NCBI GenBank assembly: GCA_963665325.3
Contig: CAXXWS020000001.1
Location: forward strand, 96,001 to 160,000
Length of the DNA stretch: 64,000 bases
Direction: 5' to 3'
Source of the DNA: Alphaproteobacteria bacterium
GTDB taxonomy: Bacteria > Pseudomonadota > Alphaproteobacteria > Bin95
The notes beneath the pieces are model-generated. The model was not told where the DNA came from. It made no database searches and saw only the letters and a list, made by a program, of their open reading frames with translations. This document shows, piece by piece, positions 32,144-48,494 of the stretch. The position numbers and the translations under genes were made by a program. How positions within the stretch are numbered: position 1 is the stretch's first letter; every line of letters begins with the position of its first letter.

Positions 32144-33697
32144 CGCGCGGATGCGCTTCATCCGCATCCAGCGCCACTCGGGGCCGTAGGCGGCGCGGCG
32201 CAGCAGCGCCATCGCGTTGAGCGCCAGCGCCGCCAGCCACAGCCAGGCGGCGTTCGCCCCGAACCGCCCCGACGGCATCATCCCGGCGGCGAGGTCGGAC
32301 TTGAGCACCGCGTGCACCTCCTCGCCATGGCCGCAGCGTTGGTGGGCTGCCGCCACGACCTCGGCGGCTTCCATCACCTTCAGCCCGTTCGCCTTCTCCG
32401 CCCGGATTGCGTCGGGAGCCGGGAAGTTGGTCATATACGCCCTGATCCTGTAGGCGGGCCTGCCGTCCGTCGCCGGCAGGTCTCCCTCGTCCATGCCCAG
32501 CTTCCCGGGAAGCGCGCGCCGGGTCACGACGTAGCGGATCACATGGTGCGGCTTCAGCCCGTTGGCGGTTGCGGGGACGTAGGGCAGTTCGGCGCATTCG
32601 AGGTGGGGCTCGCCCGGCGCCGCCTGCGCACTCCGCGTCCCCGACACCGGGCGCCAGGCGTCTTCGGCGAGCCGCGCCACCTCCGCCATCAGCGGCTCCG
32701 AACGAGTGGCGCCGCAGATCAGCCCCACGGTCCCGAAGCGCCGCGTCTCCTCCCGGCGGAAGGCGGGGTCGTTGCAGGCGCGGATCACATCTTCCTGGTA
32801 GCCCGCCCCGTCGGTGCGAAGGGTGACCCGGCGCACAGCGCCGGGCAGTTGCAAGAGCGCCTCCTCCAGCGCCCGCAGGTTATCCATCGACGCCGGCACG
32901 TTGCCGTCACGGATCTCGAGCCAGGGCGCCATCCCGATCTCGGGGCAGAAGGCGACCAGCGGCTGGTAGCCCCGCTCGCCCGGAACCACCCGCTCCGCCG
33001 CCCGGTAGGTGTACAGGCATTCGCGCTTGCCGGACGCGATGATCGTCGCATCGAGGTCGATGGTCACCGACCCCGCACCTGCCTCCCGCACGCCTTCGGC
33101 GACCAGACGCCGCCCGACCTCCCGGAACAGCTCGTGGTGTTCGCTGTGCGCCGGGATGAACGCCTTGCCCTTCTCGCGCTCTACGTCATGCACGCCCGCG
33201 ACATGAAAGCGGTCCAGCCAGTCGCGCAGCGAGCGCGCCGAGGGAAAGCAGCGCTCCCGTCCGCCCCGGAAGCGCCGGGCGAGCGCGCGCCTCGACAGGC
33301 CGAGCAGCTTCGCCTCGAAGCGCCCGACCAGCGCACAAAGACCCGCATCGCCTTCCAGACGGTCGATGTCCGACACCCGGTCGAACCCCGCGACGTTGAG
33401 AAACAGGACGGCCAGGATCATCTGACCGTCGCTCCAGCCCTGCGAAGAGCTGCCATCCGACCCCGGCAGAGCCGCCAGAACGCGTGTCGCCGCCAGCAAC
33501 TCCAACAGCACCACCAGACCGCCCAGCGCCGTCGCAGGCGTCCCATCCCGGGCAACTTCAAGCTTGACCGGAGAGCGATAAGGCGTGACCATTTTCTTCA
33601 CCCGGTTGGTGACGCCCACAAGGGCGGGTTGCTGACACAACCCATTGCAAAAATGGCCCAACCGGGTGCTCAAACTTTTTCTGATCGCCGATCAGGG
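32144..33697 (-). mobile_element. IS1380-family element, 3' truncated (transposase from 33592)
   Basis: TALGGL, TIDLDAT, GYQPL, RDGNVPA, LRTDGAGY, E..HAVLK, PSGRFGANAAW; end CCCTGATCGGCGA at 33685-33697. Confidence 0.85.
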
Positions 33698-34262: not shown

Positions 34263-34455
34263 TCAGAGGCGCAATACGGGGATCATCTGGATGGGATCGG
34301 GGTGCGCCAGGGTTTCGAGGACATTCCAGCGCTGTTTTCGAGCGGTGGCGATGACGGATCGCAGGTTTGCGAAGTCGCGGGCGCCTTGCATCGAGCGGAA
34401 GCCGCCTGAGATTTTCTGGCGCAGCTTGCCCATTCGGAGGTCGCGCTCGGCCTCG
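34263..34455 (-). pseudogene. IS66-A transposase C-terminal part
   Basis: EAERDLRMGKLRQKISGGFRS continues SNN from the 37873 side. Confidence 0.88.
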
Positions 34456-34593
34456 TTATCCCCGATCACGGATTATTCCCGATTCGTCGCCGGACCCGCC
34501 GATTCGCGCAGCATCGAGCGCAAGATGCCGGAATAATCACAAGCTGTCTTCTCCCGCTGGCTCGCTCGCCAGCGTATGCAAAGGAGAAGACAG

Positions 34594-35844
34594 ATGTCGA
34601 CAACCCACTTCTTTCTCGCGGCAGGAGCGGGCTGGGATCGGCTGTATGCCGGCCCGCTCGCCAGCCATGTTGATGATTTTGCGGATTGGCTCGCGCATCA
34701 GGGCTACGCGCGGAAGACCGGACGCCGGAAGCTTCGATTGGTCGGCCAGTTCAGCCGCTGGCTGGGGGATCACGGGCTCAACCTTCCGGCGCTGGACGAG
34801 GTGCAACTCGAACGGTTTCGTAGCTTCCGATCACGCCTCGGCAAGTACACGGCCAACGTCATGTCCGACGGTCGGGAGCTGTTGACGTGGCTACGCGAGA
34901 CCGGCCGTCTGGCGCCGGTCGAGGCCGAACCGTCGTGCGATGACCCGGTTGGGGACGCCGTAGACCGGTATGAGCGCTTCCTCTTCGGCGAACGCGGCGC
35001 AAGCCTGAACACGGTACAGGCTTATCTGTCGACCGTTCGAACCTTTCTCGGCGATCGTTTCGAGTCCAGGCCTGCTGAGCTTGAGTCTCTGGGTATCCAG
35101 GACATCAACGGGTTCATTCTGCACTCGTGCCAGAGCCACAGTCCGGCGACGACACGGGTCCATGTTGCGGCTTTGCGCAGTTTCACGGGGTATCTGTATC
35201 GATCCGGGATCATGGCCACAGATATCGCCGACGGGATAGCCGGGGTCAGAACCTGGCGCCTGTCGAGCTTGCCCAAGGGGCTGGAGCCGGATCAGGTCAA
35301 AGCGGTACTCGCCAGTTGCGACCGCAGCACGGTCACTGGTCGGCGCGATTACGGCGTTCTGCTGTTGCTGGCGCTCCTCGGATTGCGGGCCTGTGAGGTC
35401 GTGCGCCTGACCCTGGACGACATCGACTGGGGCAACGCCGAGATTGCCGTGGTCGGCAAGGGTGGCCGACGCGATGTTCTGCCCCTGCCCCAAGAGGTCG
35501 GCGAAGCTCTCGTTGCGTATCTGCAAGCCGGTCGGCCGACTTGTGCGACACGCCGTCTGTTTGTGGGGCGCTATGCCCCGGTTCGCGGCTTTCAGTCGTC
35601 GTGCGCCGTTGTCAAAATCGTTCGTTATGCGTTCGCACGGGCCGGAATCGAACGACCGGGCAGGGGCGCGGCCCATCTTCTTCGTCATTCACTGGCAACC
35701 AGAATGCTGCGCAACGGAGCCTCGCTCGAGGAGATCGGGCAGATCCTGCGGCACCACAGTCCCGACAGCACGCGGATCTACGCCAAGGTCGATCTTGACG
35801 CCCTTCGCCCCCTGGCCCCGGCGTGGCCGGGAGGTGCGGCATGA
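34594..35844 (+). CDS. ritA: RIT tyrosine recombinase A
   Basis: RD...LLGLRACEV, GKG, HLLRHSLA, LRH...STRIYAKVD. Confidence 0.9.
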   Translation: MSTTHFFLAAGAGWDRLYAGPLASHVDDFADWLAHQGYARKTGRRKLRLVGQFSRWLGDHGLNLPALDEVQLERFRSFRSRLGKYTANVMSDGRELLTWLRETGRLAPVEAEPSCDDPVGDAVDRYERFLFGERGASLNTVQAYLSTVRTFLGDRFESRPAELESLGIQDINGFILHSCQSHSPATTRVHVAALRSFTGYLYRSGIMATDIADGIAGVRTWRLSSLPKGLEPDQVKAVLASCDRSTVTGRRDYGVLLLLALLGLRACEVVRLTLDDIDWGNAEIAVVGKGGRRDVLPLPQEVGEALVAYLQAGRPTCATRRLFVGRYAPVRGFQSSCAVVKIVRYAFARAGIERPGRGAAHLLRHSLATRMLRNGASLEEIGQILRHHSPDSTRIYAKVDLDALRPLAPAWPGGAA

Positions 35845-36770
35845 CAAGCCTTCGGACCCTGTGTGAGGACTATCTCGCCTTCCGCCGCTCCCTGGGGGCC
35901 AAGCTCCTGATGACGCGCGGGCTCCTGTTCCAGTTCATCGCGTTTCTGGCGCAGCGCGAGGCCCCGTTCATCACCGCCGCGCTGGCGATCGAGTGGGCCA
36001 GCAAGCCGGAAGGCGTCCAACAGGAATGGCGGGCGCGCCGCCTGTCGGAAGTCCGTCAGTTCGCCCGCTATGTTCACGCGGTCGATCCGCGCCACGAGGT
36101 CCCGCCTCAGCGGCTCCTGCCCTATCGGCGCCAGCGCCCCCAGCCCTACATCTACAGTGATGGCGAGATCGAAGACCTGATCGGTGCCGCACGTGATCTG
36201 TCCGGGCATCTCCGCCCGCGGACCTGCTCGACGATGCTGGGCCTGCTGGCGGTGACCGGCATGCGCAGCGGCGAAGTGGTCCGTCTCGACCGCGACGATG
36301 TCGATCTCCGGCAGGGGATCCTGACCATCCGCGAGAGCAAGTTCGGCAAGTCGCGTCTCAACCTCTGCCATGACACGACCGTGCAGGCCTTGAGCGAGTA
36401 CGCTGCCTGGCGGGACGAACGCTGTCCTCGTCCGCAATCTCCCGCCTTCTTCCTGAACGAACGCGCGAAGCGGATCGGCAAGGCAAGCTTCCGCAAGACG
36501 TTCAAGACCCTGACGTGTCAGACCGGTCTGCGGGACCCCGCGGCTTCCCATGGACCCCGCCTTCACGATCTCCGTCACACCTTCTCCGTAAGAACTCTGA
36601 TTCGGTGGTATCGCGACGGTGTTGACGTCGACCGCCACCTGCCACGTCTCTCCACCTGGCTCGGCCATAGCTGTATTGCCGATTCCTATTGGTATCTCAC
36701 CGCAGTTCCCGAACTCATGGCGCTTTCCGCCTGGCGTCTCGATGAATGGCAGGGGAGGCACAGCTCATGA
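35841..36770 (+). CDS. ritB: RIT tyrosine recombinase B
   Basis: TGMRSGE, SKFGKSR, RLHDLRHTF, LSTWLGH...YWYL; ATGA overlap. Confidence 0.9.
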   Translation: MTSLRTLCEDYLAFRRSLGAKLLMTRGLLFQFIAFLAQREAPFITAALAIEWASKPEGVQQEWRARRLSEVRQFARYVHAVDPRHEVPPQRLLPYRRQRPQPYIYSDGEIEDLIGAARDLSGHLRPRTCSTMLGLLAVTGMRSGEVVRLDRDDVDLRQGILTIRESKFGKSRLNLCHDTTVQALSEYAAWRDERCPRPQSPAFFLNERAKRIGKASFRKTFKTLTCQTGLRDPAASHGPRLHDLRHTFSVRTLIRWYRDGVDVDRHLPRLSTWLGHSCIADSYWYLTAVPELMALSAWRLDEWQGRHSS

Positions 36771-37765
36771 GTGCGATCGCCGATTTTGCCAAGCTGCTGG
36801 CCCTGTTCTTCTCCCGGTACCTCATGCAGCAACGTCAGGTCAGCCCCAACACCATCGCCAGCTACCGCGACACGTTCCGGCTTCTCGTCAACCATGCCAA
36901 CAGGGTCCTCGGCAAGTCGCCACAGGACCTGTCTTTCGAGGATCTCGACGCCGACTTCATCGGTGACTTCCTCAATCATCTCGAGCACGAGCGCGGCAAC
37001 GATGTCCGTACCCGCAATGCCCGCCTGGCGGCAATCCGGTCTCTGTTCGGTTATGTCGCCCTGCACGAGCCGCAGCATGCAGCCCTGGCTCAACGGGTCC
37101 TGGCCATACCGACCAAACGCTATACCCGACGAGAGGTCGACTTCCTCAATCGCGCGGAGAGCGAAGCTCTCCTGCGGGCACCGGATCGGACCGGTTGGGT
37201 TGGGCGACGCGACTACTGCTTGCTGTTGGTGGCGCTGCAGACCGGCATGCGGAGCTCGGAGATCATCGCCCTGCGCCGCACCGATGTCCGCCTTGGTGAC
37301 GGCGCTCATGTCCGCTGTCACGGCAAGGGGCGGAAGGAGCGCTCGATCCCGTTGCGCCGGGACTCGGTGGCGGCCCTCCGTGCGTGGTTGAAAGAGCGCG
37401 GCGGCGAGCCCTATGACCGGATCTTCCCGAACCAGCGCAGCAGACCGCTCACGCATGGCAGTTTCGACTATCTCCTGGCTCGGAACCTCGCCGTCGCGCG
37501 GGCGGCCTGCACGTCGCTGGCGGACAAACGGGTCACGCCCCATACCCTGCGCCACAGCGCCGCCATGGAACTGCTTCAAGCTGGCGTTGACCGTGCAACC
37601 ATCGCGTTGTGGCTCGGGCATGAATCCGTCGAGACCACCTACATCTATTTGCATGCCGATCTCGAACTGAAGGAGCGGGCAATGGCCAGAACGACCCCTG
37701 CCGGGACCCCAATGAGAAGGTACGAACCGCAGGACAGTGTCCTGGCGTTCCTGAACAGCTTGTGA
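36767..37765 (+). CDS. ritC: RIT tyrosine recombinase C
   Basis: SPNTIASYRD, TRNARLAAIRS, GKGRKER, TPHTLRHS, WLGHESVETTYIY. Confidence 0.9.
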   Translation: MSAIADFAKLLALFFSRYLMQQRQVSPNTIASYRDTFRLLVNHANRVLGKSPQDLSFEDLDADFIGDFLNHLEHERGNDVRTRNARLAAIRSLFGYVALHEPQHAALAQRVLAIPTKRYTRREVDFLNRAESEALLRAPDRTGWVGRRDYCLLLVALQTGMRSSEIIALRRTDVRLGDGAHVRCHGKGRKERSIPLRRDSVAALRAWLKERGGEPYDRIFPNQRSRPLTHGSFDYLLARNLAVARAACTSLADKRVTPHTLRHSAAMELLQAGVDRATIALWLGHESVETTYIYLHADLELKERAMARTTPAGTPMRRYEPQDSVLAFLNSL

Positions 37766-37872
37766 TTATTCCGGCATCTTGCGCTCGATGCTGCGCGAAT
37801 CGGCGGGTCCGGCGACGAATCGGGAATAATCCGTGATCGGGGATAACGAGGCTTATTTCAGATCTGGAATAA

Positions 37873-39227
37873 GCCTCGTTGTTGGAGAAGGGTGTTCGCG
37901 GATCGGTGAGGAAGCGCAGGCACCCCTCCTTGTACTTCTGGAGCCGGAGGGCGAGGTTGTGACCGATGCGGCGCTTTTGTCGTCCACGCTTTCCGGTCCG
38001 GAGCGGTGGCATTTCTTCGTGAGAGGCGATGGCCCGCTCAAGGATGCGGTCCCAGGCTTGCGAGATGCGGGCCACCAGTGAGGCGGGCACGTCGCGATCA
38101 TTGTTGCGGGCGAAGCGGGCGGCTCTGTTGGCACGGGTGAGGAGCCGGTATGTGCTCGTTGCCCAGTCTTCCTTCTCGATCTCGATGAGGGCCTGGAGCT
38201 CACGCAGGTGATGGGCGTTGCAGGCCCCGTGACGCACGCCCTCGAGAGCGAAGTAGGTGGCGTAGTCGTCATGGATGACGATGCCGTTGAGCTTCTCGTC
38301 GATGTGGCTGCGCCCGGTGGCGACGCGCAGGATGGTGAGCAACGGGGTGCACAGCACATGGAGCCACCGGGTCCGGGCGGCGATGCGGATGCCGGTCTCG
38401 TCGAGGTGTTTGACCGGGGCTGCGGTGCGGATGATCTCCGCGAGGCGATCGAGGAAGCCTTCGAAGCGCCGGGCGGTGCGCCTGCCCATGGCGACGATGG
38501 TGGCTGTTGAGAGCTTGACCGCGAAGAGGTCGCTCATGACCTCGGCGACGCGCTTCTCGGGAATGAACTGAGCGTGCAACAGGTAGGTCACCCACGCGGT
38601 GATGCGCGGCCCATACTGGACCGGAGCGCTCACGCCGTTCGGGAAGGCGGCTGTCGTCACGGTGCCGCAGGCGGCGCAGAGGCAGCGATGGCCGCGATGT
38701 TCGGTGACCTCGAGGGGCTGCGGCTCGGGCACATCGAAGACCTGCCGGCAGACGGGGGCTCCGTGACGGTCAGCGTCCGACAGCGGCGCGCCGCAGCCCT
38801 CACAAGCGCACGGATCATGATCGACGACATGGTCGGGCGTCGCGGTCCGTTCCAGGGTGGTTCCCTTGTGGCCCGGCTGGCCGCCACTGGGCCTGTCGGA
38901 CTTGCCGCGCTGGCTCCGGGTGCGCTTCTCCCGGTCACCGCTCTTCTTCTTCAGGCCGTCGCTGGCCGGCGGCCTGGAGCTGGTGGTGCTGTCGAGCGCG
39001 GCGCGGCGCTCGAGTTCGGCGATCCGCTCGCGCAAGCGGGCGTTCTCCTGCTCCAGCGCGTCGTTCTCCTTGACCAGGGCCGCGCTCAGGCGCAGCAACC
39101 TCTGGCCCCATTCCCGAATGGCTTTGACGGCGGTCATCGCGAAGGATTGTGGGGTAAAAAGGTCCTGCAGGCACGCGAAGGCCTCGTCGTGGGCAGCGAG
39201 GTCCTCGTGCCAGCGCGACACTGTCAC
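37873..39227 (-). pseudogene. IS66-A transposase N-terminal part
   Basis: DSTTSSRPPASD, GGQPGHKG, zinc finger, HLDETG, CNAHHLREL, PFSNNEA at the break. Confidence 0.9.
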
Positions 39228-39892
39228 GAACCCTCGTCGGCCTCGACGGCCATGATCGCGGCCAGCACCGCCAGGCGTTCGCCCGCCGGCATGGCCTCGT
39301 AGCGCCGGCCCCAGTTGGCCGCCTTGCGCTTGATGGACTGGCGTTCGGTGAAGTTCCGGCCGGCGAAGCTCGCCCAGTGCACCCGGTCAGGCGCGAAGTT
39401 GAACCACACGACCTCGGTCCGCACCTGGGCCTGGGTCGTCACCTGCAGCGCCAGCCGGCGCCAGCCCGCCAGCAGCTCGTCATAGAGCGCAGACGGGTGG
39501 CCCGAGACCATCACCTGGCAGGGCAGACCCTTGAGCAGTTCGAGGAGCGCGACGTGGTCGGCTTCCTCATACTCGAAGCGGTAGCGCTGCGACGAACGAC
39601 GGGTCGCGTGCAGATAGGGCGGATCGCTGTAGACCAGCTCCGGGCCCAGGAACGGGAACGAGGCCAGGAAGGAATGGGCGCAGCCGTGCACCAACTCTAC
39701 CGGGTAGTCGCAGCCAAAGGCCTCAAGCGCCCGCTCGTCGCGGTCGATCCCGATCGAGCGCATGGCCGCCGGCTTGCGCTTCATCAGCGCCCCGCCTCCA
39801 AGATGGCTCTCGATATAGACAGAGTGCGGCGGCATCAGCGCAATCAGCGCCTGGCTCAGACCGGTCGTCGCCTTCGACCCGAAATACCCCAA
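39224..39892 (-). CDS. Dam-like (D12 class) DNA adenine methyltransferase
   Basis: YFGSK, PPHSVYIESHLGGGA, DPPY, EVVWFNF; stop overlaps transposase start. Confidence 0.85.
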   Translation of the reverse strand: MGYFGSKATTGLSQALIALMPPHSVYIESHLGGGALMKRKPAAMRSIGIDRDERALEAFGCDYPVELVHGCAHSFLASFPFLGPELVYSDPPYLHATRRSSQRYRFEYEEADHVALLELLKGLPCQVMVSGHPSALYDELLAGWRRLALQVTTQAQVRTEVVWFNFAPDRVHWASFAGRNFTERQSIKRKAANWGRRYEAMPAGERLAVLAAIMAVEADEGS

Positions 39893-40338
39893 CGGCTGCT
39901 CCTCTCATGCGAGAGTGCAACCCATAGTTGCGTGGGCCTATACAGTCAAGAGAGGAAGGGGATCGACGACCCGCCGACCGCAAAACGGCGCCCACGGCCA
40001 ACAAAACTCAGAACGCACTCAGAGCGCGCGGCAGGCTACCTGGGTAGTTACAATGGCAGTTTCGTAGTAATTGCGGAAGCACTGGGTGCCGATGGATGGC
40101 AGCAGTCTGTTGATATCGGTCATCATCGGCATCCAGTTCTAGGTAAAGCCGGCAAACTGAACCGAGAGCGCCGCGTATCGGGGACGACCGGTCGTGCAGG
40201 GAGACTGGTTGCGGGTCAGTGCCATTGGTGTTCGGAAATTATGTAGGAAACCTGGTATTAGCCATTCGGCTTCGGGTTAATTCCGGCAGGGGCCTGATCG
40301 TAGTACGCGAGGCGAAGTGGTGCGGGTGCAGGGGGTTG

Positions 40339-41280
40339 CTACTGCATCTTGTCGAGACCGAGCTCGAGTGAGCACGTGCCGACTGCGCGACCGGCGTTGA
40401 GGCGTTCTTGCGAAAACGCGTGTCTGAGGTCGGTAGAGACGATCAGAGAGAAGTGGCTCGGGTGGTCCATTCTGTCGTAGGCGCAGTCACACATTTTGAT
40501 GATCTGGGGGCGCTGGACGTCGGTCAATGGAATGCCTTTTCGCAGTTTGGATTGCTCGTCGAAGAAGGTAAGGCAGGTGTCGTTCACGAATTCCTCGCGT
40601 CGCCGTTGTTGTTCAATGACGGCCATTTCTCGAGCGAAGCCGGATGAGGAAGGGTGGTTTCCTGTTTTCGCGAGAGACTGCAGTTGGTCGGGTGGGACGA
40701 GTTCGACAACCGAATAAATCTTCGACTCTACTGCATCGGTGATTTGGTAGTCTCCGATGCCGAGGGCGACCTGGAGGACCGTGTAATTGGGTTCGAGGAA
40801 GTAGAGGACGAGATAGTCCGCAATGTCGAACAGGCAATTGTTCCGGAATGCGGTGATGGAGGCTATCCAGTCGTCGATGACCGCCGGATGGTCGGGACTG
40901 CGCCAGTTGAAGTCGTAGACGTAATCGGAGTGTGTGAGGATCCGGTCCTTCAGCTCAGCGTATACATCGGGGTGTTCGTCAGGTCCTGCCAGAATGAACG
41001 GGATGGCAGCGATGTAGGCGGGGGCATAAGGGACTTCGTGTTCGGAGAGCCCGTCCATGGCATTGCCTTTGTTGAACAGGGCGCCGAAAGTTCCGACCGC
41101 CTCTAGCTTTGGCGCGCATTGGTCACGCTCTGCGAGCAGGCGCTCGCTGTCGTCTTGGATTCTCTCCCGACGTTGTTGTTCGCTTTCGGATTTTGCCGCT
41201 TCTGCTTTTCGTTGCGAATCGGCTGAAGCTGGAAGGACAGCAAGTAGAGAAAGGGCACAGGTTAGAAGGAGACGCTTCAT
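40339..41280 (-). CDS. Secreted hypothetical protein
   Basis: Signal peptide MKRLLLTCALSLLAVLPASA; several Cys; lower GC than flanks. Confidence 0.7.
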   Translation of the reverse strand: MKRLLLTCALSLLAVLPASADSQRKAEAAKSESEQQRRERIQDDSERLLAERDQCAPKLEAVGTFGALFNKGNAMDGLSEHEVPYAPAYIAAIPFILAGPDEHPDVYAELKDRILTHSDYVYDFNWRSPDHPAVIDDWIASITAFRNNCLFDIADYLVLYFLEPNYTVLQVALGIGDYQITDAVESKIYSVVELVPPDQLQSLAKTGNHPSSSGFAREMAVIEQQRRREEFVNDTCLTFFDEQSKLRKGIPLTDVQRPQIIKMCDCAYDRMDHPSHFSLIVSTDLRHAFSQERLNAGRAVGTCSLELGLDKMQ

Positions 41281-41347
41281 TTTCTGGACCTTGGCTAGAT
41301 GTGCTGGGAGGTAATCCTTCGTTCGTCGGGTGATGGGGCTGGAGATT

Positions 41348-42229
41348 TCATCGATTGAGGGTTCGCTTCCAGTCTTTTCGGAGGGGTCGCAGCCAGATGT
41401 CCTTCCTGGGCTCGGCCCGTTTCATGTGGGTGTCGTAGCGTCCCCGGCCCTGGGTGGTCCCGACCCGTATCCAGCCGGAAGCCCTGTAGACGGCGCCGGT
41501 ATAGCGCGGGGTCTCGACGAAGGTCTCGATGAGCACGGGGGTGGTGTTGTAGCGTTCGGTCCAGTCGAGGGGCAGGCGGCGGCGCACGAGGGCGAGGATG
41601 TGCGAGCCGAGGTTGGGGATCTCGACCCATGGCAGGATGAGGAAGCGGGGGTTGTCGACCACCAGCGGCAGGTTCTTCTCGCGCATCTCGGGGGTCCATC
41701 CGATGAAGTCGTCGCGCGGGGCGAGCTTCCAGGCGGCGGTGGAGAAGCCGAGCATGGCGATGGGCCAGCCGTTCCGATCGTGGACGGCGTAGCGCATCTG
41801 GGCGCCGACCAGGGTCTTGTATCCGAGGTAGTGGTAGCGGGCGACGAACTCGTTCCACAGCCTGCCCTCGCGGGTCTCGCGCACGACGGTGCGCATCTCC
41901 AGCGGGCGGACCTCGTCGAGGGTGGTCGGAGCGGGGAACAGCGGCGGCTCGGTGTCCGGTCCGAAGACGATGGGCCTGGGCCGGCCCTGCTTTCCCCTCG
42001 GCGGCGGCAGGACGATCACGCCGTCGCGGTGCATGGCGAGCATGGTGACCCGGGCCATCATGTCCTTGAGCCCGCCGTCGGGCTTGAGCCAGCCGATGCG
42101 CCGGCAGAACTCTCGGGACAGGGCGGCTCGGGTGGGCTGCGGATCGGCGGCGATCAGGGCGCGCAGCAGCGCCATCTCGTCGGTGGTGAAGTCGCGGCCG
42201 TAGTAGCGGCACTCGATCGTGCCGGTCAT
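41348..42229 (-). CDS. DUF4338 (Druantia DruA-like) protein
   Basis: WNEFVARYHYLG, RDDFIGW, RFLILPWV.IPNLGS, ETFV, G..YRASGW..VG.TQGRG; ATGA-coupled to transposase. Confidence 0.85.
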   Translation of the reverse strand: MTGTIECRYYGRDFTTDEMALLRALIAADPQPTRAALSREFCRRIGWLKPDGGLKDMMARVTMLAMHRDGVIVLPPPRGKQGRPRPIVFGPDTEPPLFPAPTTLDEVRPLEMRTVVRETREGRLWNEFVARYHYLGYKTLVGAQMRYAVHDRNGWPIAMLGFSTAAWKLAPRDDFIGWTPEMREKNLPLVVDNPRFLILPWVEIPNLGSHILALVRRRLPLDWTERYNTTPVLIETFVETPRYTGAVYRASGWIRVGTTQGRGRYDTHMKRAEPRKDIWLRPLRKDWKRTLNR

Positions 42230-42490
42230 CCCGGCGTCGTGAACTTGCGCTTGCGCGCCTCGCTCATCGTCCAGGGCAGCCAGGGCGACAGGTCGTCCGG
42301 CGGCTTGCCGCCATTCTTCGCGCACGCCGTCAGCCATGCCTCCAGCCAGCGCAACACGTCGATGCCGTGCATCGAGAGCGTGCCCACCACGGAGTGCATG
42401 ATCGCGGTGAACTTCGCGCCGTCCTCGCTGTTCGAACCGAAGCTCAATCGGCGCCGGATGACCGCGCAGCGCAGTCCGCGCTCGGCGATG
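42226..42490 (-). pseudogene. IS66-B transposase C-terminal part
   Basis: IAERGLRCAVIRRRLSFGSNS...WLPW. Confidence 0.88.
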
Positions 42491-42571
42491 TTATCCCCGA
42501 TCACGGATTATTCCCGATTCGTCGCCGGACCCGCCGATTCGCGCAGCATCGAGCGCAAGATGCCGGAATAA

Positions 42572-43570
42572 TCACAAGCTGTTCAGGAACGCCAGGACAC
42601 TGTCCTGCGGTTCGTACCTTCTCATTGGGGTCCCGGCAGGGGTCGTTCTGGCCATTGCCCGCTCCTTCAGTTCGAGATCGGCATGCAAATAGATGTAGGT
42701 GGTCTCGACGGATTCATGCCCGAGCCACAACGCGATGGTTGCACGGTCAACGCCAGCTTGAAGCAGTTCCATGGCGGCGCTGTGGCGCAGGGTATGGGGC
42801 GTGACCCGTTTGTCCGCCAGCGACGTGCAGGCCGCCCGCGCGACGGCGAGGTTCCGAGCCAGGAGATAGTCGAAACTGCCATGCGTGAGCGGTCTGCTGC
42901 GCTGGTTCGGGAAGATCCGGTCATAGGGCTCGCCGCCGCGCTCTTTCAACCACGCACGGAGGGCCGCCACCGAGTCCCGGCGCAACGGGATCGAGCGCTC
43001 CTTCCGCCCCTTGCCGTGACAGCGGACATGAGCGCCGTCACCAAGGCGGACATCGGTGCGGCGCAGGGCGATGATCTCCGAGCTCCGCATGCCGGTCTGC
43101 AGCGCCACCAACAGCAAGCAGTAGTCGCGTCGCCCAACCCAACCGGTCCGATCCGGTGCCCGCAGGAGAGCTTCGCTCTCCGCGCGATTGAGGAAGTCGA
43201 CCTCTCGTCGGGTATAGCGTTTGGTCGGTATGGCCAGGACCCGTTGAGCCAGGGCTGCATGCTGCGGCTCGTGCAGGGCGACATAACCGAACAGAGACCG
43301 GATTGCCGCCAGGCGGGCATTGCGGGTACGGACATCGTTGCCGCGCTCGTGCTCGAGATGATTGAGGAAGTCACCGATGAAGTCGGCGTCGAGATCCTCG
43401 AAAGACAGGTCCTGTGGCGACTTGCCGAGGACCCTGTTGGCATGGTTGACGAGAAGCCGGAACGTGTCGCGGTAGCTGGCGATGGTGTTGGGGCTGACCT
43501 GACGTTGCTGCATGAGGTACCGGGAGAAGAACAGGGCCAGCAGCTTGGCAAAATCGGCGATCGCACTCAT
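42572..43570 (-). CDS. ritC: RIT tyrosine recombinase C
   Basis: Identical translation to 36767-37765. Confidence 0.9.
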   Translation of the reverse strand: MSAIADFAKLLALFFSRYLMQQRQVSPNTIASYRDTFRLLVNHANRVLGKSPQDLSFEDLDADFIGDFLNHLEHERGNDVRTRNARLAAIRSLFGYVALHEPQHAALAQRVLAIPTKRYTRREVDFLNRAESEALLRAPDRTGWVGRRDYCLLLVALQTGMRSSEIIALRRTDVRLGDGAHVRCHGKGRKERSIPLRRDSVAALRAWLKERGGEPYDRIFPNQRSRPLTHGSFDYLLARNLAVARAACTSLADKRVTPHTLRHSAAMELLQAGVDRATIALWLGHESVETTYIYLHADLELKERAMARTTPAGTPMRRYEPQDSVLAFLNSL

Positions 43571-44496
43571 GAGCTGTGCCTCCCCTGCCATTCATCGAGA
43601 CGCCAGGCGGAAAGCGCCATGAGTTCGGGAACTGCGGTGAGATACCAATAGGAATCGGCAATACAGCTATGGCCGAGCCAGGTGGAGAGACGTGGCAGGT
43701 GGCGGTCGACGTCAACACCGTCGCGATACCACCGAATCAGAGTTCTTACGGAGAAGGTGTGACGGAGATCGTGAAGGCGGGGTCCATGGGAAGCCGCGGG
43801 GTCCCGCAGACCGGTCTGACACGTCAGGGTCTTGAACGTCTTGCGGAAGCTTGCCTTGCCGATCCGCTTCGCGCGTTCGTTCAGGAAGAAGGCGGGAGAT
43901 TGCGGACGAGGACAGCGTTCGTCCCGCCAGGCAGCGTACTCGCTCAAGGCCTGCACGGTCGTGTCATGGCAGAGGTTGAGACGCGACTTGCCGAACTTGC
44001 TCTCGCGGATGGTCAGGATCCCCTGCCGGAGATCGACATCGTCGCGGTCGAGACGGACCACTTCGCCGCTGCGCATGCCGGTCACCGCCAGCAGGCCCAG
44101 CATCGTCGAGCAGGTCCGCGGGCGGAGATGCCCGGACAGATCACGTGCGGCACCGATCAGGTCTTCGATCTCGCCATCACTGTAGATGTAGGGCTGGGGG
44201 CGCTGGCGCCGATAGGGCAGGAGCCGCTGAGGCGGGACCTCGTGGCGCGGATCGACCGCGTGAACATAGCGGGCGAACTGACGGACTTCCGACAGGCGGC
44301 GCGCCCGCCATTCCTGTTGGACGCCTTCCGGCTTGCTGGCCCACTCGATCGCCAGCGCGGCGGTGATGAACGGGGCCTCGCGCTGCGCCAGAAACGCGAT
44401 GAACTGGAACAGGAGCCCGCGCGTCATCAGGAGCTTGGCCCCCAGGGAGCGGCGGAAGGCGAGATAGTCCTCACACAGGGTCCGAAGGCTTGTCAT
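43567..44496 (-). CDS. ritB: RIT tyrosine recombinase B
   Basis: Identical translation to 35841-36770. Confidence 0.9.
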   Translation of the reverse strand: MTSLRTLCEDYLAFRRSLGAKLLMTRGLLFQFIAFLAQREAPFITAALAIEWASKPEGVQQEWRARRLSEVRQFARYVHAVDPRHEVPPQRLLPYRRQRPQPYIYSDGEIEDLIGAARDLSGHLRPRTCSTMLGLLAVTGMRSGEVVRLDRDDVDLRQGILTIRESKFGKSRLNLCHDTTVQALSEYAAWRDERCPRPQSPAFFLNERAKRIGKASFRKTFKTLTCQTGLRDPAASHGPRLHDLRHTFSVRTLIRWYRDGVDVDRHLPRLSTWLGHSCIADSYWYLTAVPELMALSAWRLDEWQGRHSS

Positions 44497-45743
44497 GCCG
44501 CACCTCCCGGCCACGCCGGGGCCAGGGGGCGAAGGGCGTCAAGATCGACCTTGGCGTAGATCCGCGTGCTGTCGGGACTGTGGTGCCGCAGGATCTGCCC
44601 GATCTCCTCGAGCGAGGCTCCGTTGCGCAGCATTCTGGTTGCCAGTGAATGACGAAGAAGATGGGCCGCGCCCCTGCCCGGTCGTTCGATTCCGGCCCGT
44701 GCGAACGCATAACGAACGATTTTGACAACGGCGCACGACGACTGAAAGCCGCGAACCGGGGCATAGCGCCCCACAAACAGACGGCGTGTCGCACAAGTCG
44801 GCCGACCGGCTTGCAGATACGCAACGAGAGCTTCGCCGACCTCTTGGGGCAGGGGCAGAACATCGCGTCGGCCACCCTTGCCGACCACGGCAATCTCGGC
44901 GTTGCCCCAGTCGATGTCGTCCAGGGTCAGGCGCACGACCTCACAGGCCCGCAATCCGAGGAGCGCCAGCAACAGCAGAACGCCGTAATCGCGCCGACCA
45001 GTGACCGTGCTGCGGTCGCAACTGGCGAGTACCGCTTTGACCTGATCCGGCTCCAGCCCCTTGGGCAAGCTCGACAGGCGCCAGGTTCTGACCCCGGCTA
45101 TCCCGTCGGCGATATCTGTGGCCATGATCCCGGATCGATACAGATACCCCGTGAAACTGCGCAAAGCCGCAACATGGACCCGTGTCGTCGCCGGACTGTG
45201 GCTCTGGCACGAGTGCAGAATGAACCCGTTGATGTCCTGGATACCCAGAGACTCAAGCTCAGCAGGCCTGGACTCGAAACGATCGCCGAGAAAGGTTCGA
45301 ACGGTCGACAGATAAGCCTGTACCGTGTTCAGGCTTGCGCCGCGTTCGCCGAAGAGGAAGCGCTCATACCGGTCTACGGCGTCCCCAACCGGGTCATCGC
45401 ACGACGGTTCGGCCTCGACCGGCGCCAGACGGCCGGTCTCGCGTAGCCACGTCAACAGCTCCCGACCGTCGGACATGACGTTGGCCGTGTACTTGCCGAG
45501 GCGTGATCGGAAGCTACGAAACCGTTCGAGTTGCACCTCGTCCAGCGCCGGAAGGTTGAGCCCGTGATCCCCCAGCCAGCGGCTGAACTGGCCGACCAAT
45601 CGAAGCTTCCGGCGTCCGGTCTTCCGCGCGTAGCCCTGATGCGCGAGCCAATCCGCAAAATCATCAACATGGCTGGCGAGCGGGCCGGCATACAGCCGAT
45701 CCCAGCCCGCTCCTGCCGCGAGAAAGAAGTGGGTTGTCGACAT
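44493..45743 (-). CDS. ritA: RIT tyrosine recombinase A
   Basis: Identical translation to 34594-35844. Confidence 0.9.
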   Translation of the reverse strand: MSTTHFFLAAGAGWDRLYAGPLASHVDDFADWLAHQGYARKTGRRKLRLVGQFSRWLGDHGLNLPALDEVQLERFRSFRSRLGKYTANVMSDGRELLTWLRETGRLAPVEAEPSCDDPVGDAVDRYERFLFGERGASLNTVQAYLSTVRTFLGDRFESRPAELESLGIQDINGFILHSCQSHSPATTRVHVAALRSFTGYLYRSGIMATDIADGIAGVRTWRLSSLPKGLEPDQVKAVLASCDRSTVTGRRDYGVLLLLALLGLRACEVVRLTLDDIDWGNAEIAVVGKGGRRDVLPLPQEVGEALVAYLQAGRPTCATRRLFVGRYAPVRGFQSSCAVVKIVRYAFARAGIERPGRGAAHLLRHSLATRMLRNGASLEEIGQILRHHSPDSTRIYAKVDLDALRPLAPAWPGGAA

Positions 45744-45907
45744 CTGTCTTCTCCTTTGCATACGCTGGCGAGCGAGCCAGCGGGAGAAGACAGCTTGTGA
45801 TTATTCCGGCATCTTGCGCTCGATGCTGCGCGAATCGGCGGGTCCGGCGACGAATCGGGAATAATCCGTGATCGGGGATAACGAGGCTTATTCCAGATCT
45901 GAAATAA

Positions 45908-47778
45908 GCCTCGTTGTTGTCCATGGGGATGAAGGGCTTGTCGAGGAAGACGCACAGCCCCTCGCGATGCTTGAGCAGTCTGCGCAGCGGCTTGGCCTTG
46001 CGCGACCCGTCCGACAGGCTGGCCAGCTCCGCTTCGGCGTCCGCGAACAGGCGCTCGACGGCGGTCTTCAGGGCAGCCTGCGCCGCGTCGAAGGCCGGCG
46101 TCTGGCGTTCGGGTGCGCGAGCGGGGTCGTAATGTTCCAGCCGCTCCTTGTTCAGCCGGTAGATATCCGCGATCCGCTCGACCCAGCCATCGCTCCAGGC
46201 AGAGAGCCGGGCATGGCCGACCACGCTCTGGACGAAGTCGCGCCTCTGGTGGGCCCAGCACCAGCACAGGATCACCTTGCCGCCGAGTTCGCGCGCCAGC
46301 TTCCTGTAGGCGCTGTAGCGGTCGCAGACCACATACACGGTGCAGGCGGTGTCGCCGAACAGGCTCTTTGCGACCTCGGCGCTGCGCGAGGGGTCGATGA
46401 GGTAGTAGACTGCATCCTCGCTGACCGAGATCCACAGCCAGGCGCGGCTCGACCGGCCGTTGCGGCGGTACTCCTGCACCCGCCAGCCGGTCTCGTCGGC
46501 ATGGCGCAGCGTCGCCTTGTTCTGGTGCGCGAGGATCGCTTCGGCGAGCGGCTCGAACAGCGGCACGAAGCGCTTGATGCTGTCGGCCAGGGTTCCCGGC
46601 GAGATCGCCAGCCCCTGGTCCCCCATCCAGGCCGCGATCCGGTTCAGCGGGCGCAGGCAGACACAGTGCTCGAAGAGAAAGCGCGTCCAGACACCGATCC
46701 CGTAGGACGTGTTGTCGAACAGCCGCTCCGGCGGGGGCGCGGTGACTTCCAGGGGCGAGGACGCGCAGTCGCAACCCCGGCGCCAGCGTGTGCGGAGGAT
46801 CCTGCGAATGTGGGCCTTGACCTCGATCTCGACGAGGCTCGTGGAACGCTCGCCGTTGGCGATATAGGGCTTGCCGCAGCAGGAGCAGGTGCGCGCGGCC
46901 TTCGGCGGATTGCGCCGTTCCTTCTTCTCGCCGAGCCCGGGCCGCGGGGTGCGGCCGTGGCCCGGCGCGCCGCGCTGCTGGCCGCGCTTGCGCCCCGTAC
47001 CCTTCTTCTTCTGCTTCTCGCTCTTGCTCCCGAACAGCGCCTTCGACAAGGCGCTTCGGGTCGATTGCAGTCGGGCTATCCGGGCTTCCAGTCCCGTGTT
47101 CCGGGCCCGCAGCGCCTCTATCTTCTTGCCCTGGCGGGCGTTCGCCCTGCGCAGAGACGCGAGCTCGTCCTTGCGCTCCCGCGCGCGTTCCAGCGCCTTG
47201 TGCAACCGGGCATTCTTCCGCGTCAGGGAAGCGACTTCCCGGCGCAGCGTCCCGATCGTGTCCTTGTCGGGCTTCCGTGTCGGCGCGGTCTTGGGCGGCC
47301 GGACGGCAGCCGTATCCTTCGCGGCTTCCGACGCCCGCAAATCCTGGCGCAACCGGACGACTTCCATGCGCAGCGACGTGATCGTGCCGCGCTTGCGCGA
47401 ATCGACGCCGGCCTCCGAAAGCAGCTTCTCCAGCCGCGCCACTTCCGACTGGTGGAACAGCGCGTCCTTCGCCGCGCGCCGGACCTCCTTCACCTCCTCG
47501 ACCGCCGCCTTGAGCTTGTCCCGGCTCTGGTCGAGGTTCCACTTCAGCGAACCGGCCTGGGAACGGGCGGTCCGCTCCGCCACAAGCAACGCTTCGGCGC
47601 GCGCTTCCGCCGCGTCCGCCCGCGCCCGCTCCTGCTCCGCGCGGGCCTCCGCCTGTTCGCACAGGGACTGCCAGTCGGGAGGCTCGCACACCGATGCCGC
47701 CATGGAAGGCGACCAGAGCCCGTCGTCGCTCTCGGCCAGCGTCAGGGTCGCCGCAAAATCCTCGTCGCGCATCGCCAT
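45908..47778 (-). pseudogene. IS66-B transposase N-terminal part with long coiled-coil extension
   Basis: LFGSKSEK, RGQQRGAPGHGR, CSCCG, HADETGW, CDRYSAY, CWAHQRRDF, PMDNN at the break. Confidence 0.9.
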
Positions 47779-47855
47779 GGGCGCGACGATAGCGAATCCC
47801 GGCCGGCGTTACCCGAGCCGCGCGCATGGCGCCCAAAACGAACTCGGACTGCCCA

Positions 47856-48494
47856 TCACCCGACGAACGAAGGATTACGCTGGGAGTGGTTGGGGGCGGA
47901 CGTGGTTGGAGTCGGATTCCACATACGGGCGAGAAACTCGCGTGCCTCGATGGCGATGGCCGTGGTGTACATCGCCGTTGTCGCTATGTCGGTATGACCC
48001 AGCACGGCTGCGATGGTGGGCAGCGGCACGCCGGCCGTGACGGCGGCGATTCCGAAGGCGTGGCGTAATCCCTTCGGACAAGCCTGCGGTCCGGAGATCC
48101 CGGCGCGATCCATAACGGCGACGATGCGCCGGTGGCCGGTTGCGCGCGACCAGGGCCAGAGCGGCTCGCCGGCGCGCCGGGCCGGGATGCCGCGCAGCCC
48201 GTGGACGAGTTCGAGCGCGCGGAGGGTCTCGGGCGGCAGAGGGACCTCGCGCCAGTGTTCGGCGCGCCTCTTGAGGCTGGATATCCGGATGGCGCTGGCG
48301 TCCAGGTCGATATCGGTCGGTCTCAGTGCGAGGGCCTCGGAGATCCGGGCTCCGCTGTGCGCCAGGGTCAGGGCGAAGGTCTGATGCTCGGGCTTCGGGG
48401 CTCGCGCAGCGGCCTGCAGGAACCGCTCGCGCTCCTCCCGGGTCAGGTATTTCCGGCCCTGGCGGTCGAACAGGGAGATGGCGTTTCCGGTCAT
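47856..48494 (-). CDS. Small catalytic-domain tyrosine recombinase; last codons replaced by the IS66-B end
   Basis: RKYLT, SGARISEAL, LKRR, PKGLRHAFG, LGH...TTAMY. Confidence 0.85.
   Translation of the reverse strand: MTGNAISLFDRQGRKYLTREERERFLQAAARAPKPEHQTFALTLAHSGARISEALALRPTDIDLDASAIRISSLKRRAEHWREVPLPPETLRALELVHGLRGIPARRAGEPLWPWSRATGHRRIVAVMDRAGISGPQACPKGLRHAFGIAAVTAGVPLPTIAAVLGHTDIATTAMYTTAIAIEAREFLARMWNPTPTTSAPNHSQRNPSFVG

What the first reader, a model, noticed from the sequence alone, without database searches (positions are those of the whole stretch)
34440..45925. RIT element targets the conserved NNxAER codons of two different IS66 transposases
Seen: two dissimilar IS66 tnpC genes are each split at CGCGCTCG-GCnnnG-TTGTTG (SNNEAERD and DNNIAERG). 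Established: NNxAER is a highly conserved IS66 motif around the presumed catalytic Glu, and RITs are known to show target preference. Inference: a hyperparasite that uses IS66 as a safe, multicopy landing pad, inactivating it, and possibly restoring it on excision or hitch-hiking when the IS is mobilised in trans.
Basis: partly seen in the sequence, partly recalled or inferred. Interest (0 to 1): 0.75.

Follow-up and report, generated by a model that had tools for sequence, protein, structure and literature searches.

The report
Recombinase-trio element homes into IS66 transposase genes
A small mobile element that carries three recombinase genes has inserted twice, at exactly the same conserved codon, into two unrelated IS66 transposase genes, and its relatives in other bacteria do the same, which shows where and roughly how this poorly understood element family integrates.

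Summary
Two 100% identical copies of a recombinase-in-trio (RIT) element, a 3,423-nt insert each, sit in opposite gene orientation inside two IS66-family transposase genes that share only 26% protein identity. Both genes are cut at the same model column (Pfam PF03050 col 257, NCBIfam NF033517 col 331), between the NN and xAER codons.

The targeting holds elsewhere. In the RitA clade of this element, 7 of 8 elements have at least one flank that is an IS66 gene broken at that column. Contigs from other public runs carry the matching empty site.

The anatomy suggests a mechanism. The layout is flank, hexamer, inverted repeat, ritABC, inverted repeat, hexamer, 20-nt palindrome, hexamer, flank. A circular form would therefore hold two core-type sites. 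The hexamers vary like the coupling sequences of Tn554 or Tn916, and here they cover only the variable codon x.

Other RIT lineages use the same anatomy on other conserved codons. These include the Arg-His codons of tyrosine recombinases (33 of 49 loci, often the ritB gene of another RIT), radC, and other IS66 sites.

A RIT interrupting an IS66 gene was noted in passing in 2010. I found no description of the codon-level rule or this site anatomy in the papers I could search. Circle formation and transposition were not shown here.

The parts
34263..34455 (-). IS66-1 transposase gene, C-terminal part (..EAERDLRMGKLRQKISGGFRS.. to the stop). Its last 6 nt, 34450-34455 GCCTCG, are hexamer h1.
   Evidence: Translation. 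PF03050 columns 257-283. NF033517 columns 331-382.
34456..37846 (+). RIT copy 1 proper, 3,391 nt. Terminal inverted repeats lie at 34456-34547 and 37755-37846. They read as 98 nt when the flanking hexamers are included.
   Evidence: Eight TTATYYC repeats lie at the ends and in the palindrome, and none in the coding part.
34594..35844 (+). ritA (416 aa from the ATG at 34594; the ORF is open from 34576).
   Evidence: PF00589 and PF02899. Homologues are typically 416 aa.
35841..36770 (+). ritB. Its ATG overlaps the ritA stop (ATGA). It contains PRLHDLRHTFSV..WYRDG.
   Evidence: PF00589. Sequence.
36767..37765 (+). ritC. The likely ATG at 36767 overlaps the ritB stop. The ORF is open from 36746.
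   Evidence: PF00589 and PF02899. Sequence.
37847..37878 (.). Attachment module of copy 1: hexamer h2' CGAGGC (37847-37852), 20-nt near-palindrome TTATTTCAGATCTGGAATAA (37853-37872), hexamer h3 GCCTCG (37873-37878).
   Evidence: The same module occurs in 76 of 162 RIT loci.
37879..39101 (-). IS66-1 transposase gene, N-terminal part, ending ..TDPRTPFSNN. The ORF is open up to 39227.
   Evidence: PF03050 columns 2-257, DUF6444 and zf-IS66. NF033517 columns 1-331.
41311..41337 (.). Left terminal inverted repeat of IS66-2 (GTAATCC.., 27 nt). Its partner is at 47852-47878.
42229..42490 (-). IS66-2 transposase gene, C-terminal part (..IAERGLRCAVIRRRLSFGS..). Its last 6 nt, 42485-42490 GCGATG, are hexamer h1.
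   Evidence: NF033517 columns 331-386. At E<=1 only weak Pfam hits, both under their cut-offs: PF13817 (E 0.083) and PF03050 columns 257-283 (E 0.22).
42491..45881 (-). RIT copy 2 proper, 3,391 nt, with the rit genes on the minus strand: ritC 42572-43570, ritB 43567-44496, ritA 44493-45743.
   Evidence: 100% complementary to copy 1. ORFs.
45882..45913 (.). Attachment module of copy 2: h2' CGAGGC (45882-45887), palindrome TTATTCCAGATCTGAAATAA (45888-45907), h3 GCCTCG (45908-45913). The palindrome is the reverse complement of copy 1's, as its two asymmetric positions show.
   Evidence: (pair I4).
45914..47400 (-). IS66-2 transposase gene, N-terminal part, ending ..DKPFIPMDNN. The frame is open up to 47778.
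   Evidence: PF03050 columns 4-257. NF033517 columns 1-331.
47852..47878 (.). Right terminal inverted repeat of IS66-2.

Best explanation
What it is. The element is a 3.4-kb recombinase-in-trio (RIT) transposon. Its lineage integrates site-specifically into IS66-family transposase genes, at the DNA that encodes N-N-x-A-E. In the orientation of the window's plus strand the target is YTCG | 6 nt | TTGTTG.

Proposed mechanism.
1. The element leaves as, or is copied into, a circle.
2. The circle junction reads: inverted-repeat end, hexamer, 20-nt palindrome, hexamer, inverted-repeat end.
3. That junction is two adjacent core-type sites. Each site has two inverted recombinase-binding repeats (TTATYYC) around a 6-nt spacer.
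4. Either site can recombine with the target.
   - This is why the rit genes can face either way.
   - It is also why the palindrome always ends up on the same side of the target.
5. The spacer hexamers behave as coupling sequences. They need not match the target. One stays with each junction, so the element carries hexamers from earlier targets.

Consequences. The hexamer spans only the last base of the second Asn codon, the variable codon x, and the first two bases of the Ala codon. Insertion therefore separates NN from xAER, which most likely inactivates the transposase. Excision would give back an open gene that differs at most in residue x.

What is shown and what is inferred.
- Shown: the anatomy, the same-column targeting, the empty sites, the hexamer variability and the swapped hexamers.
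- Inferred: the circle, which protein binds which repeat, the order of strand exchange, and whether the donor copy is kept.
For: 1. Independent insertions. The two copies are 100% identical, while their host genes share 26% protein identity. The own genome holds only these two copies.

2. Same model column in seven IS66 genes.
- W1 and W2.
- L029 N-part: PF03050 columns 41-256. L031 N-part: columns 4-256. L110 C-part: columns 257-283 plus PF13817.
- C-parts of L030, L031 and L040: NF033517 columns 331/333-385.
- Count: 7 of 8 elements of the clade. The miss is L109, a truncated element whose one visible flank gave no IS66 hit.

3. Phylogeny. These 8 form one clade with support 100 (FastTree) and 99 (IQ-TREE quick). 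The clade is nested among RITs with other targets.

4. Empty sites. Contigs of three other public runs join across exactly 3,423 nt at the predicted ends.
- Same-genus IS66-1 homologues read NNEAER in 9 of 10 loci examined. In 8 of those 9 the DNA is GAGGCC, which gives the hexamer GCCTCG. The ninth reads GAGGCG. The tenth locus (L204) did not reach the site.

5. Fixed polarity. The palindrome side faces the NN part in 5 of 5 cases (W1, W2, L029, L031, pHG1). The plain end faces the xAE part in 7 of 7 (W1, W2, L029, L030, L031, L040, L110).

6. Hexamers vary where the neighbouring DNA does not.
- W carries GCCTCG and GCCTCG. L031 carries CCGCGG and CCGCGG. L029 carries GCAAAA and GCGAAG.
- These elements are about 96% identical in DNA overall.
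- The carried hexamers equal real IS66 variants: CCGCGG = NNRGE in own-genome copies, and GCAAAA = NNFAE in L237.

7. Three pairs of the same element have the internal and external hexamers swapped and the element flipped: W1/W2, L043/L042 and L167/L171.

8. Repeats. There are 8 TTATYYC repeats per copy, all in the ends and the palindrome, against 6 in the other 57 kb of the window.

9. Circle-like junction. The contig L149 begins with a 70-nt perfect palindrome that equals the predicted circle junction.
Against: - No circle, excision or transposition was observed. All runs laid were assembled contigs, which cannot show rare forms.
- The empty sites may never have been occupied.
- Direction of transfer, and which flank's hexamer travels with the element, cannot be decided. 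The two mirror-image rules fit equally well.
- L045/L047 do not fit a single-step history. In 4 of 51 loci the internal hexamer equals h1 but not h3.
- L030 and L040 have an IS66 flank on one side only, and L109 on none.
- L040 is one base short at the junction.
- In the own genome at least 6 related IS66 copies are unoccupied. There are 26 non-IS66 matches to the minimal motif YTCG-N6-TTGTTG, so the recognised target must be larger than that motif or insertion is rare.
- Ten loci show the palindrome on both sides. These may be rearrangements or fold-back assembly errors.
In 86 of 162 loci no palindrome was found, many of them on short contigs.
Confidence: 0.8

Rival explanations
1. The hexamers are fixed parts of the element and are never exchanged. 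Integration is a classical attP x attB reaction with a very short overlap (G-TT), and the element's GCnnnG copies only mimic the target to help binding.
For: At copy 2 only G-TT is shared between the two junctions. In 10 of 51 loci all three hexamers are identical.
Against: Elements about 96% identical in DNA differ at 3-5 of 6 hexamer positions, while the repeats next to the hexamers are conserved. Elements with identical RitA (L042/L043 and L167/L171) carry different hexamers in a swapped pattern. In the 33 loci with tyrosine-recombinase targets, 98 of 99 hexamers fit the codon pattern N-CGN-CA or N-AGR-CA.
Confidence: 0.12
2. One ancient IS66::RIT chimera spread and diverged. Alternatively, the RIT was copied from one IS66 to the other by homologous recombination or gene conversion between IS66 copies, without any site-specific targeting.
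For: Both copies lie 4.6 kb apart on the same replicon, in a region rich in mobile elements.
Against: The RIT copies are 100% identical, whereas the IS66 genes share 26% protein identity. Their flanks share only 10 nt and 6 nt of DNA. The copies are flipped, including the asymmetric palindrome. The same site is used in different IS66 genes in other organisms.
Confidence: 0.03
3. Chance: a randomly inserting element landed twice in IS66 genes because such genes are common and insertions in them are tolerated.
For: The own genome holds several IS66 copies. Insertions in an IS cost the host nothing.
Against: The same codon boundary is used in seven IS66 genes of different subgroups, and polarity is fixed. 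Even among sites in the own genome that carry the minimal motif, both insertions falling in IS66 would have a probability of about 0.02. I derived this from the counts: 5 IS66 sites of 31, counting the two occupied ones.
Confidence: 0.02

Closest known systems
RIT (recombinase in trio) elements, e.g. ritA1B1C1 of Cupriavidus metallidurans CH34 and the trios on plasmid pHG1
   Same: Three co-oriented, overlapping tyrosine recombinase genes, a size of about 3.4 kb, flanking inverted repeats and a palindrome near one end. Identical copies occur within a genome. Passages of PMC3414803 and PMC2864759 describe these features. [quoted passage not shown] RitA of the window is 40-49% identical to plasmid-borne RitA.
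   Different: The passages I read give no target sequence, no codon-level rule and no core-site model. [quoted passage not shown] PMC10214605 lists target specificity and movement as not tested. Here the inverted repeats are 98 nt. The lineage is a distinct clade and is absent from 72,556 plasmid records at high identity.
[quoted passage not shown]
   Same: These are multi-recombinase tyrosine transposons with site specificity. A 6-bp piece of donor flank is carried to the new site (passage of PMC10214605). The RIT hexamers behave alike.
   Different: RITs have long terminal inverted repeats and a palindrome that gives two alternative core sites, so they can insert in either gene orientation. 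They lack a fourth accessory gene (Tfp/Srap/TnpC). Their targets are codons of conserved motifs in other mobile elements. Relatedness of the proteins was not tested here.
Tn916-type conjugative transposons (coupling sequences); this comparison is recalled, not checked in a paper here
   Same: A tyrosine recombinase tolerates heterology in a 6-7-bp overlap. The flank-derived coupling sequences travel with the circle.
   Different: Tn916 has one integrase plus Xis, and it has loose AT-rich targets. RITs have three recombinases and sharply defined targets.
Homing elements that exploit conserved coding sequence (homing endonuclease genes, group II introns; Tn7 at glmS); recalled
   Same: The logic is the same. 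The target DNA cannot drift because it encodes an invariant protein motif, so the site is present wherever the host gene family is.
   Different: The chemistry differs (tyrosine recombination). The target here is itself a selfish element. There is no splicing to rescue the host gene.

Membership tests
RIT (recombinase in trio) element | Three adjacent, co-oriented tyrosine recombinase genes (ritA, ritB, ritC) with short overlaps | tested here: met
   PF00589 is found in all three ORFs. ATG codons at 35841 and 36767 overlap the preceding stop codons.
RIT (recombinase in trio) element | Flanking inverted repeats, a unit of about 3.5 kb, and identical copies within a genome | tested here: met
   98-nt perfect inverted repeats, a 3,391-nt element (3,423 nt with its attachment module), and two 100% identical copies.
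RIT (recombinase in trio) element | Each protein falls in its own RitA, RitB or RitC subfamily. RitA has two CB domains (PMC8138268, passage). | tested here: inconclusive
   RitA, RitB and RitC of the window each hit the corresponding gene, in order, in other trios. Pfam finds one SAM-like domain at residues 129-210 of RitA and leaves residues 1-128 unassigned. No subfamily models were available.
IS66 family (the target genes) | Transposase with the DDE_Tnp_IS66 domain | tested here: met
   PF03050: E 2.3e-29 and 3.8e-47. NF033517: 214 and 210 bits, above the cut-off of 180, for the N-parts alone. IS66-2 has 27-nt GTAA.. terminal repeats.
IS66 family (the target genes) | The Glu of NNxAER is the catalytic E of the DDE triad | not tested
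   This is recalled from the IS66 literature (Gourbeyre et al. 2010, not held). Two searches and the passages of PMC3281130 gave no statement on it. N, N and E were invariant in every IS66 sequence read here.
Coupling-sequence transposons of the Tn554 / SE kind | A 6-bp flank sequence is carried from the donor to the new site, and heterology is tolerated | tested here: inconclusive
   h1 differs from h3 in 31 of 51 loci. Three pairs have swapped hexamers. No observed transposition event.
Coupling-sequence transposons of the Tn554 / SE kind | Circular double-stranded intermediate | not testable with these tools
   Only assembled contigs were on hand. The start of contig L149 looks like a circle junction but could be an assembly effect.

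The most novel reading that the evidence does not exclude
RITs as a whole family may be 'catalytic-motif homing' transposons. Each lineage has evolved a core site that recombines with the DNA encoding an invariant motif of another mobile element's key gene. The motifs seen here:
- Arg-His of tyrosine recombinases, including the ritB and ritC genes of other RITs
- N-N-x-A-E and T-A-K-L-N of IS66 TnpC
- IS66 TnpB
- H-N-H-P-S-G of RadC
- DDE transposases of other families

In the two best-sampled classes (IS66 NNxAE and tyrosine-recombinase Arg-His) the 6-nt crossover region lies on wobble or variable positions; for the other motifs this was not checked. A target placed this way cannot escape by mutation. 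Excision is silent at the protein level. The carried hexamers are a readable log of the element's last hosts.
Probability: 0.5. Interest if true: 0.85.

Novelty: new variant of a known kind. Interest (0 to 1): 0.72.

Why it matters
RIT elements are widespread. One search scored 4,976 RitA relatives at E<=1e-30 among 8,000 candidates. Yet their movement has never been reproduced, and their target specificity is listed as untested in a 2023 paper.

This window, together with about 160 related loci, provides three things:
- a concrete attachment-site model,
- a precise target,
- a testable prediction for the circle junction.

An integration assay can now be designed directly from these.

The result also shows a layered parasitism. 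A transposon lives inside other transposons' catalytic codons, and inside its own relatives. This bears on how mobile elements compete and persist.

A recombinase set whose target choice has shifted between defined 16- to 20-nt sites during evolution may also interest people who look for programmable integrases.

Tried and rejected
Tools and papers not available.
No earlier notes were seen.
The closest RitA relatives (those listed at 59-91% identity, P0001-P0028 among them) could therefore not be placed on contigs.
- Ricker et al. 2013 (Plasmid 70:226) is not held. Van Houdt et al. 2009 and Gourbeyre et al. 2010 were not seen. They may already describe part of the target rule or the palindrome.

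Literature searches for prior description.
- Searches found no paper with a codon-level RIT target.
- PMC12306157 held none of the terms in its main text.

Searches that came back empty.
- Close DNA relatives of the element in plasmids: none. Two weak matches covered 5% and 2% of the query.
- IS66-1 in plasmids: no match.
- Same-family genomes: no close copy of the element in 36 genomes, with best matches at 64-72% identity over short stretches.

Steps that failed or were only partly useful.
- Terminal repeats of IS66-1: none longer than 11 nt were found, so its ends remain undefined.
- The native hexamer of IS66-2 could not be settled. The nearest intact relatives are 85% identical and read NNLAER.
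- The first regex for the IS66-1 site printed nothing.
- One search used a query one base out of frame. This was found and corrected.
- One search had a syntax error and was repeated.
- The automatic frame choice picked wrong frames in GC-rich loci and was replaced by motif-guided frames. That script still mislabelled L100, which I corrected by eye and by Pfam.
- The canonical-anatomy script recognised only L246 among the five plasmid loci. pHG1 was read by eye.

Not used as evidence.
- Parts of the stretch without contig cover say nothing.
- No structure prediction, complex prediction or RNA-family scan was run, because none would bear on the question.

Full report
**What is in the window**

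Positions 34456-37846 and 42491-45881 are two copies of a 3,391-nt element. Together with one flanking hexamer each, they are 100% complementary to each other over 3,398 nt.

Each copy encodes three co-oriented tyrosine recombinases of 416, 309 and 332 aa. All three match PF00589, and their start codons overlap the preceding stop codons.

Each copy ends in 98-nt perfect inverted repeats. This is the known anatomy of a recombinase-in-trio (RIT) element (passages of PMC3414803).

The own genome (5 contigs, 5.58 Mb) holds only these two copies, plus a distant trio on contig C1.

**The junctions**

Read on the plus strand, both insertions have the same layout:

left flank - hexamer h1 - TTATCCCC..(inverted repeat)..rit genes..(inverted repeat)..GGGGATAA - hexamer h2' - 20-nt near-palindrome - hexamer h3 - right flank

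| | h1 | h2' | h3 | left flank ends | right flank starts |
|---|---|---|---|---|---|
| Copy 1 | GCCTCG | CGAGGC | GCCTCG | CGCGCTCG | TTGTTGGAG |
| Copy 2 | GCGATG | CGAGGC | GCCTCG | CGCGCTCG | TTGTTGTCC |

The rit genes face opposite ways in the two copies, yet the palindrome lies on the same side of the target in both. The palindrome has two asymmetric positions, and in copy 2 it is the reverse complement of copy 1's (pair I4). The whole unit, palindrome included, is therefore flipped.

The heptamer TTATYYC occurs 8 times per copy: three times in each inverted repeat and twice in the palindrome. It is absent from the coding part and occurs 6 times in the other 57 kb of the window.

**The targets**

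- Both flanking genes are IS66-family transposase genes on the minus strand.
- Their N-parts end at PF03050 column 257 and NF033517 column 331. Their C-parts begin at the same columns.
- The peptides read ..FSNN|EAERD.. and ..MDNN|IAERG...
- The two N-parts are 26% identical.
- The flanks share only 10 nt and 6 nt of DNA next to the element.
- IS66-2 keeps its 27-nt GTAA.. terminal repeats.

Two identical elements in two very different genes at the same column means two separate insertions. It rules out an inherited chimera.

**Is it a rule? Relatives of the element**

A RitA alignment was used to scan genome contigs, and the single protein was used to scan metagenome contigs. This gave 160 loci.

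Eight elements (the two window copies, L029, L030, L031, L040, L109, L110) form one RitA clade. Support is 100 in FastTree and 99 in IQ-TREE quick. Their DNA identity to the window element is 80-96%.

| Element | IS66 flanks | Evidence |
|---|---|---|
| W1, W2, L029, L031 | both sides | |
| L030, L040 | plain-end side only | |
| L110 | the one flank on the contig | |
| L109 | none (truncated after 1,696 nt; its one flank gave no IS66 hit) | |

So 7 of 8 elements interrupt an IS66 gene, and all 7 do so at the same model column.

The host records are labelled Thalassobaculaceae, Gammaproteobacteria and Dehalococcoidia MAGs, so the element has moved between distant hosts.

A much more distant RIT on plasmid pHG1 of Cupriavidus necator (RitA 43% identical) also abuts an IS66 family transposase gene. 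That gene reads ..WPISNN and then runs into hexamer, palindrome, hexamer and inverted repeat. In the tree it lies outside the window clade, on a long branch.

**Empty sites**

Contigs from three other public runs join position 34449 to 37873, or 34458 to 37882. They skip exactly 3,423 nt, which equals 3,391 + 6 + 20 + 6. IS66-1-like genes with the predicted uninterrupted site therefore exist.

Of 10 same-genus loci holding IS66-1 homologues that I examined:
- 9 read NNEAER at the site;
- 8 of those 9 have the DNA GAGGCC, which gives the hexamer GCCTCG, and the ninth has GAGGCG;
- the tenth did not reach the site.

The hexamer at copy 1 is thus most likely the target's own. It equals the two hexamers the element carries.

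The own genome also has at least 6 unoccupied IS66-2-like copies (NNRGEL and NNVAER). It also has 26 non-IS66 matches to the minimal motif YTCG-N6-TTGTTG. The minimal motif is therefore not sufficient, or insertion is rare.

**The hexamers**

Elements that are about 96% identical overall differ at 3-5 of 6 hexamer positions (rc = reverse complement):

| Element | rc(h2') | h3 |
|---|---|---|
| Window | GCCTCG | GCCTCG |
| L031 | CCGCGG | CCGCGG |
| L029 | GCAAAA | GCGAAG |

Each carried hexamer decodes, in the target's frame, to (AA)Y-xxx-GS. That is a plausible N-x-A or N-x-G of some IS66 gene. Two of them were found as real sites:
- CCGCGG in own-genome copies and in G010 and G002;
- GCAAAA in L237.

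In three pairs of the same element, the hexamer that is internal in one copy is external in the other, and the element is flipped. The pairs are W1/W2, L043/L042 and L167/L171. This is what is expected if a circle holds two core sites and integrates through the one that was internal before.

The direction of transfer cannot be told, because the mirror-image rule fits as well. One pair (L045/L047) does not fit a single step.

The behaviour resembles the 6-bp carry-over described for SEs and Tn554 (passage of PMC10214605). By my recollection it also resembles the coupling sequences of Tn916.

**The wider family**

The same anatomy was found in 76 of 162 loci. The other 86 include many short contigs.

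Of 49 loci outside the window with one palindrome and both flanks of at least 30 nt, the in-script reading of the empty site gave the following (with L100 corrected):

| Target | Loci | Confirmation |
|---|---|---|
| Tyrosine recombinase gene cut at ..H-x-L-R\|H.. | 33 | four tested N-parts all end at PF00589 column 133 |
| IS66 NNxxE | 2 | |
| IS66 TnpC further downstream at ..T-A-K/R-L-N.. | 2 | |
| radC at HNHPSG | 2 | both end at PF04002 column 76 |
| IS66 TnpB | 1 | |
| rve/Mu-type transposase | 1 | |
| DDE_Tnp_1 transposase | 1 | |
| csrA | 1 | |
| Unclassified | 6 | three of these still have a recombinase C-part on the palindrome side |

For the 33 recombinase targets, 98 of 99 hexamers fit N-CGN-CA or N-AGR-CA. 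These are wobble variants of Leu-Arg-His codons.

In 8 of 14 long loci examined, the interrupted recombinase gene is the ritB of another, different RIT. On pNGR234a the annotation shows a trio inside what looks like the ritC of another trio (read from the feature table only).

Identical elements sit in different recombinase genes (L042 and L043).

**What is known already**

- Janssen et al. [quoted passage not shown] They also state that a second trio and its B. petrii relative inactivate radC.
- Van Houdt et al. 2012 (passages) mention a RIT in a Tn6049-like transposase gene and one in radC. They also mention 'complex combinations' of truncated rit genes, a 28-29-bp inverted repeat and an overlapping palindrome, and they say these do not fit the usual site models.
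- Nielsen et al. 2017 (passages) saw raised mobilome coverage for rit elements but could not determine circles.
- The 2023 paper lists target specificity and movement as not tested.

The association with IS66 and radC is therefore in print as anecdote. I did not find the codon-level rule, the two-core-site reading, the travelling hexamers or the nesting in ritB in any held paper. Ricker et al. 2013 could not be read.

**Verdict**

- The 'restoration on excision' and 'hitch-hiking' parts remain inference.
- The element itself is an ordinary member of a known kind.
- Its value lies in what the pair of flipped copies reveals about how RITs choose and enter their targets.

Noticed in passing
own genome C2:160586-160793, about 600 nt beyond the window's end: A truncated second copy of IS66-1, 98% identical. 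Its uninterrupted site reads CTCGGCATTGTTGGAG (FSNNAERD). This is 3 nt shorter than the NNEAER found in 9 same-genus homologue loci, and the change lies exactly at the RIT hexamer. It could be a scar or an escape variant. No explanation was tested.
   Followed up: partly
window 37879-42490: The 4.6-kb segment between the two RIT copies is bracketed by 3.4-kb perfect inverted repeats, so it could invert by homologous recombination. The IS66 halves are currently in their matching pairs, so no net inversion has occurred.
   Followed up: partly
window 31811-33673 (-): An ORF of 620 aa with a DDE_Tnp_1_4 transposase domain (PF13701) lies just left of IS66-1. The region is a pile-up of mobile elements.
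   Followed up: no
own genome C1:450118-450814: Weak DNA matches (76-80% over 60-72 nt) to ritC of the window element. Probably a second, distant RIT on the largest contig.
   Followed up: no
L053, L057, L059, L064, L065, L067, L114, L115, L146, L172: Ten RIT loci have the palindrome and a recombinase C-part on both sides of the element. They may result from recombination between inverted copies, from tandem insertion at another RIT's site, or from fold-back assembly errors at the palindrome.
   Followed up: partly
L149:1-70: A 3.1-kb metagenome contig starts with a 70-nt perfect palindrome: inverted-repeat end, hexamer, 20-nt core, hexamer, inverted-repeat end. This is the predicted circle junction of that RIT.
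   Followed up: no
L178 and L179: The same left flank and hexamer, but different right flanks and a flipped element. It looks like flank exchange between two copies.
   Followed up: no
public runs X1-X14: 14 runs from 6 studies and 6 coded organisms hold 52-60% of the sampled words of the stretch. In the four runs laid, the element's contigs break inside the inverted repeats. Close relatives of the element are therefore widespread in sequenced samples.
   Followed up: partly
G009 (same genus), five places on C2 and C3: Five places share one identical 153-nt match (71% identity) to ritA. This suggests a multi-copy related RIT in a sister species. Its targets were not examined.
   Followed up: no
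L243 (pHG1 128344-137677): The 'maze' of recombinase genes on pHG1 reads as ritA-ritB-partial ritC, then a full second trio, then an inverted ritB-ritA that abuts the IS66 gene. It looks like nested and rearranged RITs.
   Followed up: partly
L040:5555-5570: The junction in L040 is one base shorter than in the other IS66 insertions (three T instead of four), which puts the IS66 remnant out of frame with the Asn codon. It may be a mutation or a homopolymer error in a MAG.
   Followed up: no
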